A stretch of 64,000 nucleotides of DNA from positions 21,360-85,359 of IMG/VR virus record IMGVR_UViG_3300028485_000001. One strand, written 5' to 3'. Numbering within the stretch: position 1 is the first letter of the stretch; each line of letters begins with the position of its first letter. The notes under the pieces are model-generated. The model worked only from the letters and a program-made list of their open reading frames with translations, was not told where the DNA came from and ran no database searches. Of the stretch, positions 2,704-15,613 are shown one piece after another. A program made the position numbers and the translations under genes. Source of the DNA: a virus (taxonomy: Duplodnaviria; Caudoviricetes).

Positions 2704-2997
2704 CCACCCCCGCAGGGCAGCAGCCCAGCCGAACGAAGGAGATCCGCATGAGCAAGCCCGTCCGCGTCGAGCTGATCGTCGAACACGACACCGCCGACAC
2801 CATCACCGACATCGTCGAGATCGACCGCGCCGAGTGGGACGAGATGACCCCCACCGAGCGCGAGAAGTGGTGCACCCAGGAAGCCGAGGAGCTGCGCGCC
2901 AACGTGTGCAGCAGCGGCTTCCAGGTCCTCGACGGCATCGACATCGACACCTGACCACCCAAGCAAGACAGCCCAACCGAACGAAGGAGTTCGCATG
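2701..2997 (+). repeat. Intergenic direct repeat, two copies
   Basis: TGACCACC...CAGCCCA(G/A)CCGAACGAAGGAG..CGCATG at 2701-2750 and 2952-2997. Confidence 0.75.
2748..2954 (+). CDS. Hypothetical acidic protein
   Basis: AAGGAG RBS; MSKPVRVELIVEHD... Confidence 0.6.
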   Translation: MSKPVRVELIVEHDTADTITDIVEIDRAEWDEMTPTEREKWCTQEAEELRANVCSSGFQVLDGIDIDT

Positions 2998-3276
2998 GCC
3001 ACCCTCACCGCCGCGCAGACCGCCGTCCTCGCCGACGTCCGCCTCCGCCTCGACGCCGCCGGGCTCACCGACCACCAGATCACCCCGCCCACCACCACCG
3101 CCCGCTGGACCGCCCACGACACCCGCTGGGGCACCACCGTCTACGAGGAGATCCCCGACCGGCCCGGTCACGCGTACTGCGTCCTCGCGGGCGACGAGCC
3201 CGTCGACGACCCCCAGCCCGAGGACGCCGCGCACATCAGCGACCTGGAGCGGATGGGTTTCGTCCGCGCCGCCTGA
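2995..3276 (+). CDS. Hypothetical protein
   Basis: AAGGAG RBS; MATLTAAQTAVL... Confidence 0.6.
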   Translation: MATLTAAQTAVLADVRLRLDAAGLTDHQITPPTTTARWTAHDTRWGTTVYEEIPDRPGHAYCVLAGDEPVDDPQPEDAAHISDLERMGFVRAA

Positions 3277-8184: not shown

Positions 8185-9548
8185 TGACGGTTCACGACAT
8201 CACCCCCCGCATTCCGCAGGACGACTCGACTCCGCCGCACGACGTCGGTGCCGAGCAGATCGTCCTCGGCGCGGCCATCCTCGACTCCCGGGTCCTGCGG
8301 GACCTGGGCGACCTGATCACCCCGATGGACCTGTACCGACCCGCGCACCAGGTCATCTTGGAGACCGTCATGGGCATGGCGGACCTGGGTTTGCCGATCG
8401 AGCCGGTGGCGGTGCACCGGGAGCTGGTGAAGCGCAAGCAGGCCACCGCGGTCGGCGGCGCACCGTACCTGTACGAGCTTGTGGACAAGGTCCCGACGGT
8501 ACAGAACGCGACCTGGTACGCGAAGGTCGTCGCGGACCTGTCGTTCCAGAGGCGCCTGATCGAGGCGGGCACGCGGATCGCTCAGATCGGCTGGGAGGGC
8601 GAGGGCGAGCCGACCGTCCTTGCAGAGGTCGCCGACGAGGCTCTGCGGTCTGCGGTTGCCGCCGGCGCGACGGGGGAGCCGGACACACAGCTCCTCGGAG
8701 ACGACGCGGAGTTCATCGACGCGCTGGAGAAGCCGCTGTCGACGGAGAACATGGTGCCCGCTCCCTATGTCGACCTTGGCGAGCGGATCGGCGGAGGGTT
8801 CAAGCCGGGGCAGCTGATCTGCATCGCCGGTCGGACCGGTGGCGGCAAGTCCGTGGTGGGTCTGGACATCGCCCGACACGCGGGGATCCGCCATCGGATG
8901 CCAACCCTGTACATCAGCCTGGAGATGCCCGCTGACCAGATCCGGGAGCGCATCTACGCCGCCGAGGCGAAGGTCCCGGGGAAGCGCATCACCGACCACG
9001 AGCTCACGGACGAGGACTGGTCGAAGATCGCAAAGGTGCGGCCCGCGATCAACGCCGCGCCGATCTGGGTGGCTGCGCCGGCGCAGTGCACGCTCAACAT
9101 GGTCAGGCAGCGCCTTCAGGCGATGGAGCGCAAGGGCCACAAGCCGCGGCTCCTGGTGGTCGACCACGTGGGCCTGATGTCCTCGACCGGGAAGAACGAG
9201 TCCCGCTACACCGAGGTCAGTGCCTACGCCCGCGGGTTGAAGCTGATCGCGATGGAGTTCAAGATCCCCGTGGTCATGCTCTGCCAGGTGAACAGGTCGG
9301 TGGGCCAGCGCCCGGACGCGATCCCGCGGGTGTCGGACCTGCGCGACTCCGGCGAGCTGGAGCAGTCCTCCGACCTGGTGGCGATGGTGCACCTGCCGGA
9401 CTACGACGTGAAGGACAAGGCCGAGGGGCACGAACGCGCCGGCGAGGTCGACCTGTACCTCGCGAAGAACCGCAGTGGTCCGACCGCTGTCGTGACGCTG
9501 TCGGCTCAGTTGCACTACTCGCGCTTCGCCGACATGGCGCAGGGGTGA
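8184..9548 (+). CDS. dnaB: Replicative DnaB-like helicase
   Basis: PPHDVGAEQIVLGA, Walker A AGRTGGGKS, SLEM, VVDHVGLM, LCQVNR, DLRDSGELEQ, AKNRSGP. Confidence 0.95.
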   Translation: MTVHDITPRIPQDDSTPPHDVGAEQIVLGAAILDSRVLRDLGDLITPMDLYRPAHQVILETVMGMADLGLPIEPVAVHRELVKRKQATAVGGAPYLYELVDKVPTVQNATWYAKVVADLSFQRRLIEAGTRIAQIGWEGEGEPTVLAEVADEALRSAVAAGATGEPDTQLLGDDAEFIDALEKPLSTENMVPAPYVDLGERIGGGFKPGQLICIAGRTGGGKSVVGLDIARHAGIRHRMPTLYISLEMPADQIRERIYAAEAKVPGKRITDHELTDEDWSKIAKVRPAINAAPIWVAAPAQCTLNMVRQRLQAMERKGHKPRLLVVDHVGLMSSTGKNESRYTEVSAYARGLKLIAMEFKIPVVMLCQVNRSVGQRPDAIPRVSDLRDSGELEQSSDLVAMVHLPDYDVKDKAEGHERAGEVDLYLAKNRSGPTAVVTLSAQLHYSRFADMAQG

Positions 9549-10663
9549 TGGGGATGCCCCTGACGATCGGCTCCCTCTGCTCTGGCTATGAGGGCCTGGG
9601 CATGTCTGTCCAGTCCGTCCTCGACGCCGAACTCGCGTGGGTCGCGGACCCCGATCCGGGCGCGGCGAAGATCCTCGCCCACCACCACCCCGACGTGCCC
9701 AACCTCGGCGACATCACTCAGACCGACTGGTCGACCGTGCCCCCCGTCGACATCTTGACCGCCGGGTTCCCGTGCCAGGACATCAGCAACGCCGGCAAGC
9801 GCGCCGGGATCGAAGGAGAACGAAGTGGGATCTGGTCGAACGTCGCCGACGCCATTCGCGTACTACGACCCCGAGTCGTCTTCCTGGAGAACGTCTCAGC
9901 CGTCGTTGTTCGGGGGCTCGACCGAGTTGTCTCCGACCTGGCCGCGGTCGGGTATGACGCGAGCTGGATGTGCCTACGAGCTTCCGACGTCGGCGCTCCG
10001 CACCGTCGAGAGCGCTGGTTCTGCGTCGCCTGGCCTGCCGACGCCGCGGGCCCGCGACTCGAAGGGGCGGGGGTTCTCGGACGGGTTGCCGAACGTCGTG
10101 GAGGACTTGCTGCCGACGCCGACCACCTCGGAGGCCACTGGGGCGGGGGCGCCGGATGGGAACCGCAACGACACGCTGCGGGCGCGGGTGCGGCTCTTGC
10201 CCACGCCGACGGCGACGCCCTACGGCAACAACCAGTCGCCGTCGGCGGGCGCGGCGGTGCGTCCGTCACTGAACTCCCTGGCAGCGGATGGGGCACTCTT
10301 GCCGACCCCACGGGCGTCGGACACGGGCACCCCCGGCCGCCGGGCCTCGGAGGGGTTCCGGCCGCCACTGTCGGAAGTGATCTTGCGTGGGGCGCGTACT
10401 CAGGGGCGATCCGCCGCTGGGAGCACGTCACCGGACGTCCTGCCCCTGTTCCCACTGAGCCCGGACGAAACGGACAGCCCCGCCTGAGCCCCGTCTTCGT
10501 CGAGTGGTTGATGGGTCTGCCCTTGGGATGGGTGACGGCGCCGGAGATCGGGCTCACCCGAACCCGGCAGCTTCACGCCTTGGGCAACGGCGTGGTCCCG
10601 CAGCAGGGGTCTCACGCTCTCCGTCTCCTCCTGGAGCGCGTGACCGCCGACGTGGCCGCATAG
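9548..10663 (+). CDS. DNA (cytosine-5)-methyltransferase
   Basis: SLCSGYEG (I), GFPCQD (IV), ENV (VI), HRRERWF (VIII), VEWLMGLP (IX), LGNGVVP (X). Confidence 0.9.
   Translation: MGMPLTIGSLCSGYEGLGMSVQSVLDAELAWVADPDPGAAKILAHHHPDVPNLGDITQTDWSTVPPVDILTAGFPCQDISNAGKRAGIEGERSGIWSNVADAIRVLRPRVVFLENVSAVVVRGLDRVVSDLAAVGYDASWMCLRASDVGAPHRRERWFCVAWPADAAGPRLEGAGVLGRVAERRGGLAADADHLGGHWGGGAGWEPQRHAAGAGAALAHADGDALRQQPVAVGGRGGASVTELPGSGWGTLADPTGVGHGHPRPPGLGGVPAATVGSDLAWGAYSGAIRRWEHVTGRPAPVPTEPGRNGQPRLSPVFVEWLMGLPLGWVTAPEIGLTRTRQLHALGNGVVPQQGSHALRLLLERVTADVAA
9825..10487 (+). CDS. Nested alternative-frame ORF inside the methyltransferase, with LPTP repeats
   Basis: AAGGAG at 9813-9818, 6 nt before GTG; 220 open codons; four LPTP repeats; WPRSGM motif. 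Confidence 0.55.
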   Translation: MGSGRTSPTPFAYYDPESSSWRTSQPSLFGGSTELSPTWPRSGMTRAGCAYELPTSALRTVESAGSASPGLPTPRARDSKGRGFSDGLPNVVEDLLPTPTTSEATGAGAPDGNRNDTLRARVRLLPTPTATPYGNNQSPSAGAAVRPSLNSLAADGALLPTPRASDTGTPGRRASEGFRPPLSEVILRGARTQGRSAAGSTSPDVLPLFPLSPDETDSPA

Positions 10664-10817: not shown

Positions 10818-11156
10818 ATGTCCGACACCGACCTCCTACGAGAAGCCGCCGCGAGAGTGCGCGAGACCGCCACCGCTGCCGCTCCCGGCCCGTGGCACAT
10901 GGACGAGGGCCAGCGCATCTATGCCGAGGATGGCGCCTACGTCACGTCGCCGTGGACGAACGACGAGCGAGACGACGACCTCGACCACATCGCCCTGTGG
11001 CACCCCGGGGTTGCGCTCGCCGTCGCCGACCTGCTCGACAGCGAAGCCACCCACCACGTCGACGACCCCTCGTTCGAGCGCGACACCGACCCGCTGTGCG
11101 ACACGTGGCCGCACGCGGTCCGGATCGCCCGCGCCCTGGTCGGGGAGGGGGAGTGA
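10818..11156 (+). CDS. Ead/Ea22-like phage protein
   Basis: AAAPGPW...DHIALWHPGVALAVADLL. Confidence 0.5.
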   Translation: MSDTDLLREAAARVRETATAAAPGPWHMDEGQRIYAEDGAYVTSPWTNDERDDDLDHIALWHPGVALAVADLLDSEATHHVDDPSFERDTDPLCDTWPHAVRIARALVGEGE

Positions 11157-14699: not shown

Positions 14700-15027
14700 C
14701 CAGCGGGCCTATGAGGCCGTGTACGCGTACATCGACAGCATCGGCATCGCCCTACCCACGGACGCCGCCCGCCGCAACGCCATGATCTGGACGGCCGTGC
14801 AAGCAGCCCTCGAAGCAGACGAGCAGACCGAAGCGGTGAACACCGTGGCGCGCATTCGGCAGATCCACCAGCCCGACCCGAACCCACGCAGCGGATGGAA
14901 CGCCGACGACAGTGCCCCTTCCGAATACGGCACCATCGAACGCGCCTGCCGCGAGTGCGGGGCTACCGACATGGCGGTGCCGTGGCCCTGCCCGACCCTG
15001 CGCGCGCTGGGAGGCGACGATGCCTGA
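14692..15027 (+). CDS. Hypothetical protein
   Basis: AAGGAG RBS; RQIHQP...CRECG...WPCPT. Confidence 0.55.
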   Translation: MSNQRAYEAVYAYIDSIGIALPTDAARRNAMIWTAVQAALEADEQTEAVNTVARIRQIHQPDPNPRSGWNADDSAPSEYGTIERACRECGATDMAVPWPCPTLRALGGDDA

Positions 15028-15613
15028 CACCCTGACCCGCCTCGCGGACGCCCTGCACGCTGAGCTGTGCCGACAGCACGACGTGCAGCCCGAGGGGCAC
15101 AGCCTCACCGGGGACTACGCGGCGCTGGGAGATGATGCGGCCAAGCTCGCGGAGATAGCGCAGCCGTACCTCGACGCCGCATGGGAAGCAGGCCGCAAGC
15201 ACGGGCTACGGCAGGCGCGGAAGCCCCACGACGGGCGGGTGAAGCAGCTCGAAGAGGAGATCGAGGGCGCGCTCGCGCTGGAGGAAGCCACCGGGCGTGC
15301 GTGGGCGCTCCAGTGTCTCCGAGTGCGGGACCTCGAAGAACAGGTCCGAGACCTCGAAGCAGAGGTGGAGCGACTGCAACTCGAAGCCAAGGGTGCCGAC
15401 TGCGCGCGGGAGCTCGCGCAGCAGCGGGAGCAGGATGCGCGGTGGCTGCTCGATCGCGCCACCGAGTTCGTCGTCCACGGCCCGCGCGGACCGGTTGTCG
15501 TGCGATGCGGCGAGTTCTCCAACTGGACCACGGCGAGTCACCAGAGCGGCCGGGAGGAGCATCCCGACCGTGCCGCGGCCCTGGCGCGGGCGCGGGAGAT
15601 CGCGGGGGAGTGA
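15020..15613 (+). CDS. Coiled-coil protein, C-terminus paralogous to 55713..56156
   Basis: GGAGG RBS; ends AALARAREIAGE. Confidence 0.55.
   Translation: MPDTLTRLADALHAELCRQHDVQPEGHSLTGDYAALGDDAAKLAEIAQPYLDAAWEAGRKHGLRQARKPHDGRVKQLEEEIEGALALEEATGRAWALQCLRVRDLEEQVRDLEAEVERLQLEAKGADCARELAQQREQDARWLLDRATEFVVHGPRGPVVVRCGEFSNWTTASHQSGREEHPDRAAALARAREIAGE

What the first reader, a model, noticed from the sequence alone, without database searches (positions are those of the whole stretch)
9548..10663. Dual-coding methyltransferase gene: a 220-codon nested ORF with its own RBS and LPTP repeats
Seen: motifs I-VIII and IX-X lie in one frame, but the variable region reads as low-complexity text there. 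The +1 frame (9825-10487) has AAGGAG-N6-GTG, a WPRSGM motif and four ordered repeats (LPTPRARD, LPTPTTSE, LPTPTATP, LPTPRASD). Established: M.EcoHK31I needs a beta polypeptide encoded in an alternative frame of its alpha gene. Inference: the nested product is a second subunit or a repeat-variable target-recognition part, so specificity could change with repeat number.
Basis: partly seen in the sequence, partly recalled or inferred. Interest (0 to 1): 0.7.

Follow-up and report, generated by a model that had tools for sequence, protein, structure and literature searches.

The report
Phage cytosine methylase with nested subunit gene
A phage DNA cytosine methyltransferase gene carries a second, conserved gene in its +1 frame that encodes the enzyme's DNA-recognition repeats, a true two-frame arrangement shared by thousands of relatives and almost never annotated.

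Summary

**Layout in the window**
- The main ORF (alpha, 9548-10663) holds motifs I-VIII and IX-X. About 117 off-frame codons lie between them.
- The +1 ORF (beta, 9825-10487) has AAGGAG-N6-GTG, a 70-residue N-terminal part written over alpha motifs V-VIII, and four LPTP modules.

**Evidence that both frames are maintained**
- Third-position GC and substitution patterns show the modules are selected in the +1 frame.
- Of 80 related loci, 67 share this layout, and none of the 67 has a stop in the alpha frame across the modules. Only 15-19 of the 63 simulated would be open by chance. One relative has just 46% GC.
- In the last 66 codons of the alpha N-domain the +1 frame has 1 stop in 5,070 codons. 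Elsewhere in the same genes it has 1.9-2.8 per 100 codons.
- Beta's start codon and ribosome-binding site are conserved, often built from rare alpha codons.
- Relatives carry the same modules in cis or joined to motifs IX-X, so they belong to the methyltransferase.

**Best reading**
A two-polypeptide enzyme. It shares the gene layout of M.EcoHK31I, but the nested product differs. I found no paper describing it. The scan has flagged the same pattern in another genome. Expression and activity are untested.

The parts
9548..10663 (+). alpha ORF (371 aa): C5 cytosine methyltransferase main frame
   Evidence: ORF list and translation. PF00145 E 7.8e-36 on residues 6-162. phrog_363 and phrog_116 match end to end. 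The ATG overlaps the stop of the DnaB-like helicase gene.
9548..10036 (+). alpha N-domain, motifs I-VIII (SLCSGYEG, FPCQ, ENV, RRERW...VAWP)
   Evidence: Pfam match and motif positions. In the non-overlapped part, third-position GC is highest in this frame.
10037..10387 (+). alpha-frame linker: off-frame reading of the module region (about 117 codons, G/A/R/P-rich), free of stops
   Evidence: GC is highest at beta third positions here (0.87-0.97). In 10 close pairs, substitutions peak at beta position 3. All 67 same-frame loci have no stop here, against 14.5-18.6 of 63 expected.
10388..10660 (+). alpha C-domain: WGAY...RRWE...GRPAP, motif IX (FVEWLMG), motif X (GNGVVP)
   Evidence: phrog_1008 profile positions 217-325 match alpha residues 267-369. 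Third-position GC returns to the alpha frame. Motif positions.
9813..9818 (+). Shine-Dalgarno-like AAGGAG, 6 nt before beta's GTG
   Evidence: Sequence. An SD-like motif lies upstream of the aligned start in 35 of 39 class-1 relatives, often built from rare alpha codons (AAA GGA).
9825..10487 (+). beta ORF (220 aa, GTG start), +1 frame, wholly inside alpha
   Evidence: phrog_1008 E 2e-23. More than 2,000 homologues of 170-350 aa without any Pfam domain. 5,028 clusters at 50% identity match its first 83 residues, most from their own residue 1-8.
9825..10034 (+). N-beta: 70-residue N-terminal part of beta, dual-coded with alpha motifs V-VIII (SSWRTS over FLENV, WPRSGM over DLAAVGYD)
   Evidence: +1-frame stops: 1 in 5,070 codons here, against 1.87 and 2.75 per 100 codons elsewhere in the same genes. 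Alpha third-position GC falls from 0.854 to 0.678, in 69 of 74 loci. Synonymous codon identity peaks at alpha residues 107-121 and 127-141. Class 1 and class 2 are similar in the beta frame (hhalign E 3.9e-5) while their alpha frames are offset by 24 codons. AF2 gives two beta-hairpins, pLDDT 70-83.
10035..10106 (+). module 1, LPTPRARDSKG type
   Evidence: Translation. This is the commonest typed first module after N-beta in relatives.
10107..10193 (+). module 2, LLPTPTTSE...LRARV: the core type, aligned in all 18 single-chain relatives of A3
   Evidence: Invariant columns of the LLPTP..S[DE]..G.G...LR module in alignment A3.
10194..10295 (+). module 3, LLPTPTATPYGNNQS type
   Evidence: It holds the only helix predicted in the module region (residues 149-154) and reaches pLDDT about 70-76 over residues 131-160.
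10296..10385 (+). module 4, LLPTPRASDTGTPGRR type
10386..10487 (+). beta tail and stop (TGA 10485-10487): off-frame reading of the start of the alpha C-domain
   Evidence: The tail consensus G..T.PPS..G shared by homologues maps onto alpha WG.Y..AI.RWE. The frame change lies at 10385/10388.

Best explanation
The locus encodes a C5 cytosine methyltransferase made of two polypeptides from one stretch of DNA.

Alpha (main frame) carries the AdoMet-binding and catalytic motifs I-VIII, a disordered off-frame linker, and motifs IX-X.

Beta is started independently at an internal Shine-Dalgarno and GTG, 277 nt into alpha, in the +1 frame. It has a 70-residue N-terminal domain (N-beta) written over alpha motifs V-VIII, followed by four LPTP modules. 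These modules are the enzyme's variable, target-recognising region.

Beta is proposed to dock on alpha, probably through N-beta, and place the modules on the DNA. The alpha linker loops out and only has to stay free of stops.

Shown here:
- which frame is under selection in each segment;
- conservation of both ORFs and of beta's start;
- the same modules occurring in cis in relatives.

Inferred:
- that beta is translated;
- that it binds alpha;
- that the modules set sequence specificity.
For: 1. Frame use in the window. Third-position GC follows alpha up to about 10030, beta to about 10390, then alpha again.
2. Substitutions in 10 close pairs. The module region gives 0.259, 0.171 and 0.145 at beta positions 3, 1 and 2. 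The N and C parts peak at alpha position 3. The overlap is low at all three positions.
3. Shared layout. 67 of 80 loci have it, with no alpha-frame stop across 52-285 module codons. Expected open by chance: 14.5-18.6 of 63; summed log10 P about -52 to -62. Single low-GC loci are significant alone: L082 (GC 45.7%) expects 6.3 stops and L066 expects 5.9; both have none.
4. The +1 frame over the last 66 alpha N-domain codons has 1 stop in 5,070 codons. Elsewhere in the same genes it has 1.87 and 2.75 per 100 codons, and the +2 frame over the same stretch has 2.41.
5. Beta's start. 39 of 42 class-1 loci have ATG, GTG or TTG at the aligned site, 35 with an SD-like motif. Class 2 makes its ATG from ENV coded GAG AAT G.
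6. The first 83 residues of beta match 5,028 clusters, mostly from the matched protein's own N-terminus.
7. Similarity of N-beta between the two classes does not follow alpha homology.
8. The modules belong to the methyltransferase. They sit in cis between motifs VIII and IX in P0125, L055 and 17 others. They are joined to motifs IX-X in Upyo gp53 and Andrew gp44.
9. Two-polypeptide C5 enzymes are known to work: M.AquI and M.EcoHK31I (PMC3404938, PMC2836561).
Against: - There is no expression or activity data for any family member.
- For this window alone, the open alpha frame is not significant (P 0.5-0.85).
- AF2 gives low confidence for the modules, both in beta (pLDDT 55-60) and in cis (below 50). 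No fold or DNA-contact model supports the proposed role.
- No complex could be modelled.
- All six single-chain relatives examined still keep the N-beta ORF and its start, although their modules are in alpha. N-beta may therefore do something other than dock a module-bearing subunit.
- The loci are phylogenetically related, so the summed P values overstate independence.
Confidence: 0.66

Rival explanations
1. Recoding: one polypeptide is made by a +1 shift after motif VIII and a -1 shift before WGAY. The enzyme would then be an ordinary single-chain methyltransferase, and the nested ORF only a by-product.
For: Joining the frames at about 10036 and 10386 gives a sequence colinear with single-chain relatives. 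Phages use programmed frameshifts elsewhere (general knowledge).
Against: Recoding does not explain the following:
- the stop-free alpha frame across the modules;
- the roughly 100-fold lack of +1 stops over the 66 codons upstream of the junction;
- the conserved SD and start;
- the independent conservation of N-beta.

I saw no X XXY YYZ heptamer when reading 10330-10400. The return to the alpha frame lies at different places in relatives: mid-array in L021 and L060, and after WG in L082.
Confidence: 0.1
2. N-beta is the functional unit, a small overprinted protein with its own role such as a regulatory or assembly factor. The LPTP modules are attached to it only incidentally; where modules lie in the beta frame they may be dispensable or act elsewhere.
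For: All six single-chain relatives examined keep the N-beta ORF, its start and its SD, but read only junk after it. N-beta is the best-predicted part of beta.
Against: In the window type, alpha has no module in its own frame, so it would lack a variable region altogether. The modules in the beta frame are under purifying selection and are homologous to the cis modules.
Confidence: 0.14
3. Decay or neutral drift: the gene is a frameshifted relic, and the open frames are a side effect of high GC content.
For: At 68% GC, long off-frame ORFs are common. The window alone is not significant.
Against: 67 of 67 loci are open against 15-19 of 63 expected. Loci with 46-55% GC are open where 5-6 stops are expected. 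The third frame over the same stretch has stops. The split forms do carry alpha-frame stops (12 of 13).
Confidence: 0.03
4. An out-of-frame mobile insertion, like the ShiLan-domain HNH element found in related mycobacteriophage methylases: a selfish gene lodged in the methylase that keeps the host frame open.
For: The outward layout is the same: a hidden ORF in another frame with the host frame stop-free, in the same kind of phage methylase (PMC11855218).
Against: Beta has no HNH or other nuclease match. Its modules occur in frame as the variable region of relatives. Beta's 5' part overlaps conserved alpha motifs rather than lying in an insertion.
Confidence: 0.03

Closest known systems
M.EcoHK31I (alpha/beta C5 methyltransferase, YGGCCR)
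   Same: Beta is encoded entirely inside the alpha gene in another reading frame. Two polypeptides are needed for activity (PMC2836561, PMC3404938).
   Different: There beta is small and supplies motif IX, while alpha keeps the TRD. Here motif IX stays in alpha, and beta (220 aa) supplies an extra N-terminal domain plus the variable-region modules. Alpha carries a long off-frame linker where the TRD would be.
[quoted passage not shown]
   Same: The enzyme is broken within the variable region into two subunits (PMC3404938). The split relatives found here (Upyo gp54/gp53, Andrew gp43/gp44, 13 of 80 loci) have this division.
   Different: In the window, motifs IX-X are in alpha's frame, not beta's. 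Even in the split relatives, beta starts about 75 codons inside alpha (and the annotated 239-nt overlap). Whether M.AquI shares this deep overlap was not checked here.
ShiLan-domain out-of-frame HNH insertion in mycobacteriophage methylases (Arsenault et al. 2025, PMC11855218)
   Same: A hidden ORF in another frame of a phage C5 methylase gene, with the host frame stop-free and read through as a loop.
   Different: That ORF is a homing endonuclease with a patchy distribution. Beta is part of the enzyme and is a fixed feature of the family.
Multispecific Bacillus phage C5 methyltransferases (SPR, phi3T and similar; from my own knowledge, not checked here)
   Same: Tandem, exchangeable target-recognising units lie between motifs VIII and IX, and the set differs between phages.
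   Different: Those units lie in one polypeptide and one frame. No sequence similarity was tested. Whether each LPTP module recognises a target is unknown.

Membership tests
C5 cytosine DNA methyltransferase (PF00145) | Motifs I (FxGxG-like), IV (PCQ), VI (ENV) and VIII (RxR) in order in one frame | tested here: met
   PF00145 E 7.8e-36 on alpha residues 6-162. Motif positions.
C5 cytosine DNA methyltransferase (PF00145) | Motifs IX and X at the C-terminus | tested here: met
   FVEWLMG and GNGVVP lie in the alpha frame. phrog_1008, phrog_363 and phrog_116 cover the C-terminus. The Pfam alignment itself stops at residue 162.
C5 cytosine DNA methyltransferase (PF00145) | Variable (target-recognition) region between motifs VIII and IX in the same polypeptide | tested here: not met
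   The selected frame between 10037 and 10387 is +1. In the alpha frame this stretch is off-frame text.
M.EcoHK31I-type nested heterodimer | Beta ORF wholly inside the alpha gene in another frame | tested here: met
   9825-10487 lies inside 9548-10663, in the +1 frame.
M.EcoHK31I-type nested heterodimer | Beta supplies motif IX | tested here: not met
   Motif IX is in the alpha frame. Beta has N-beta plus LPTP modules.
M.EcoHK31I-type nested heterodimer | Both polypeptides are required for methylation | not testable with these tools
   Needs expression and a methylation assay.
M.AquI-type split enzyme | Second subunit carries the distal variable region plus motifs IX-X | tested here: not met
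   In the window, motifs IX-X share alpha's frame. The feature is met in 13 of 80 relatives.
Programmed ribosomal frameshift gene | Conserved slippery site at a fixed junction | tested here: inconclusive
   I saw no heptamer on reading 10330-10400. The junction position varies among relatives. No dedicated search or reporter test was done.
Out-of-frame homing-endonuclease insertion (ShiLan type) | The hidden ORF encodes an HNH or other nuclease | tested here: not met
   No Pfam, NCBIfam or PDB sequence match for beta. The only PHROG hit is 'DNA methyltransferase'.

The most novel reading that the evidence does not exclude
N-beta is an obligatory small partner of this whole methyltransferase family, created by overprinting on motifs V-VIII. 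The LPTP units are exchangeable target-recognition cassettes that work whether tethered to N-beta, to alpha or to the motif IX-X piece. Phages would then reshuffle cassettes and frames to change or multiply methylation specificity, and the stop-free alpha linker is the price of keeping motifs IX-X attached.
Probability: 0.3. Interest if true: 0.85.

Novelty: new variant of a known kind. Interest (0 to 1): 0.7.

Why it matters
- Long same-strand overlapping genes with selection shown in both frames are rare in bacteria and phages. Here about 70 codons are dual-coded, and a further 100-285 codons must stay open in a second frame.
- The pattern spans thousands of phage and prophage genes, from 46% to 70% GC.
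- It gives a probable function to a very large set of 'hypothetical proteins': at least 5,028 clusters at 50% identity.
- It shows that many annotations are incomplete. Ramsey gp69 and Darolandstone gp38 have no beta annotated, and the annotated start of Upyo gp53 lies after the gp54 stop although the ORF is open far upstream.
- It offers a natural system for studying how C5 methyltransferases tolerate fragmentation and how target specificity might be exchanged by cassettes.
- It is a caution for pipelines that discard nested ORFs or call such genes frameshifted.

Tried and rejected
- Sequencing error or pseudogene: rejected. The same layout is present in 67 of 80 independent loci with both frames intact.
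- 'WPRSGM and SSWRTS are mere shadows of DLAxxGYD and FLENV': this was my first reading. I dropped it after the stop-depletion, start-codon, synonymous-site and class 1 versus class 2 tests.
- Fused long forms carrying N-beta in frame: only one odd 423-aa protein was found (P0124), and no DNA was available for it.
- Fold of beta: low confidence (pLDDT 63). The VIA-align wide search gave one hit at Z 2.3, which says nothing.
- Fold of a single-chain relative: the catalytic domain is good, but the modules are below pLDDT 50, so there is no structural clue.
- The profile search of PDB sequences and NCBIfam found nothing for beta.
- The genome-contig scan with alignment A1 failed for lack of a conserved stretch.
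I used an internal control from the same genes instead.
- Literature searches on LPTP motifs and on overlapping methyltransferase genes in actinophages found no description of this ORF.
Full report
**What is there**

The window is part of an 85,359-bp viral contig with 68% GC. The gene lies in a phage replication module. Upstream are an endonuclease/resolvase-like gene and a DnaB-like helicase; the helicase TGA overlaps the methyltransferase ATG. Downstream are an HD phosphohydrolase, an exonuclease subunit and SSB.

The main ORF, alpha (9548-10663, 371 aa), matches Pfam PF00145 only over residues 6-162. PHROG methyltransferase families also cover its C-terminus.

The first hint came from PHROGs. 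Beta residues 2-83 and alpha residues 267-369 match different parts of one profile, phrog_1008.

**Which frame is coding where**

- Third-position GC follows the alpha frame up to about 10030. It then follows the beta frame (0.87-0.97) to about 10390, and returns to alpha from about 10480.
- In 74 relatives, alpha third-position GC averages 0.854 before the overlap and 0.678 within it. It is lower in 69 of 74 loci. Beta third-position GC in the module region is 0.827.
- In 10 pairs of close relatives, substitutions per site in the module region are 0.259, 0.171 and 0.145 at beta positions 3, 1 and 2. In the alpha N and C parts the peak is at alpha position 3 (0.208 and 0.235). In the overlap all three positions are low.

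So the LPTP modules are selected as protein in the +1 frame. The alpha text across them is off-frame.

**Survey of relatives**

A pattern scan of IMG/VR gave 80 loci. To these I added Darolandstone, Upyo, one bacterial prophage and the window. Eighty loci in all could be classified.

- 67 have motifs I-VIII and IX-X in one frame. In about 60 of them all the modules lie in the +1 frame. In a few, some or all modules are in the alpha frame.
- None of the 67 has a stop in the alpha frame between the two parts, across 52-285 codons.
- Codon shuffling or synonymous resampling of the beta frame predicts only 14.5-18.6 of the 63 simulated loci to be open. Summed log10 P is about -52 to -62; this is an overstatement, because the loci are related.
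- Low-GC members settle the point individually. L082 (45.7% GC) expects 6.3 stops and L066 (54.8% GC) expects 5.9. Both have none, while their third frame is full of stops.
- The other 13 loci are split, with motifs IX-X in beta's frame. Twelve of these 13 have alpha-frame stops after motif VIII.

**Beta's 5' part is a real, dual-coded segment**

- In the last 66 codons of the alpha N-domain the +1 frame has 1 stop in 5,070 codons. Before the overlap it has 1.87 per 100 codons, and in the C-domain 2.75. The +2 frame over the same 66 codons has 2.41.
- 39 of 42 class-1 loci have a start codon at the aligned site (29 ATG, 9 GTG, 1 TTG). 35 of them have an SD-like motif upstream, typically AAAGGA, AAGGAG or GGGAGG. 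These motifs and starts are often built from alpha codons that are rare in high-GC genomes (AAA, GGA, GAT).
- Class 2 has a longer spacing between motifs VI and VII. It makes its ATG from ENV coded as GAG/GAA AAT G.
- A full HMMER search with beta's first 83 residues finds 5,028 clusters at 50% identity. Most top hits align from their own residue 1-8.
- Synonymous codon identity in alpha peaks under beta's two conserved motifs. The ratio to expectation is 1.46 and 1.67, against 1.13-1.25 upstream.
- The first half of N-beta is similar between the two classes (hhalign E 3.9e-5). Over the same nucleotides the two alpha frames align only with a 24-codon offset. This similarity is therefore not a shadow of alpha.

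**The modules belong to the enzyme**

- Single-chain relatives carry the same modules in frame between motifs VIII and IX: P0125 (from L055) and 17 others with PF00145.
- Split relatives join them to motifs IX-X: Upyo gp53 and Arthrobacter phage Andrew gp44. Andrew gp44 is annotated with a 239-nt overlap on gp43.
- Intermediates exist. L021, L026, L060 and Ramsey gp69 have N-beta plus one or two modules in +1 and the remaining modules in alpha.
- Module number and order vary widely: 1-7 modules, eight sequence types plus unclassified ones, and 65 distinct strings in 80 loci.

**An unexpected point**

All six single-chain relatives whose DNA I could read still keep the N-beta ORF with its start, followed by junk and a stop. 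N-beta may therefore have a role beyond carrying modules.

**Structure**

- AF2 of beta gives two beta-hairpins in N-beta at pLDDT 70-83, and mostly coil for the modules.
- The single-chain relative has a confident catalytic domain, but its modules are below pLDDT 50.
- There is no fold match or sequence match to solved structures.
- The mechanism of docking and DNA reading is inference.

**Comparison with what is known**

- M.EcoHK31I shares the nested, other-frame layout, but its beta is motif IX (PMC2836561, PMC3404938).
- M.AquI shares the break in the variable region (PMC3404938). It corresponds to the split relatives, not to the window.
- Arsenault et al. 2025 (PMC11855218) describe an out-of-frame HNH gene inside related mycobacteriophage methylases, with the host frame kept open. 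That is a parallel, but a different element.
- I found no paper on the LPTP ORF.
- An earlier first-stage note of this scan reports the same pattern in another genome.

**Verdict**

This is a real and widely conserved dual-coding methyltransferase gene. It is most likely a two-polypeptide enzyme in which the nested product brings the variable region. It is a new variant of the known heteromeric C5 methyltransferases. Expression and function still need the bench.

Noticed in passing
window 9546-9550: The DnaB-like helicase stop (TGA 9546-9548) overlaps the alpha ATG (9548) as TGATG. This suggests translational coupling of helicase and methyltransferase.
   Followed up: no
L084 (Mycobacterium phage Ramsey) 840-2183: gp69 is annotated as one methyltransferase gene. 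An unannotated +1 ORF inside it encodes N-beta plus one core-type module, and it ends where the alpha-frame modules begin.
   Followed up: partly
L002 (Gordonia phage Upyo) 1261-2490: gp53 is annotated from 1789, after the gp54 stop. Its frame is open back to 1261 and reads an N-beta-like sequence, so the annotated start looks too late. No start codon was found near the class-1 aligned position, and the true start was not located.
   Followed up: partly
L021 about 2990-3010: The stop of the nested ORF and an in-frame ATG of the alpha frame appear, by back-translation, to overlap as ATGA exactly where modules switch from the +1 frame to the alpha frame. This looks like a coupled stop/start junction inside the open alpha ORF. 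The DNA itself was not read.
   Followed up: no
L086-L090 and L055: Single-chain relatives with all modules in the alpha frame still keep the N-beta ORF. It has the conserved ATG or GTG start and about 95-185 open codons (about 85-100 from the start codon), ending in junk.
   Followed up: partly
L003 3642-3947 (minus strand): In a bacterial prophage, the source's gene caller called a minus-strand ORF and the nested ORF but missed the alpha N-domain. This shows how such loci confuse annotation.
   Followed up: no
P0124 (ENA contig, no DNA available): A 423-aa protein has LLPTP units on both sides of an N-beta-like segment, then junk-like text, then motifs IX-X, with no recognisable motifs I-VIII. 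This is another arrangement of the same parts.
   Followed up: no
window 10818-11156 and 14912-15613: Two well-biased ORFs next to the methyltransferase have no PHROG match.
   Followed up: no
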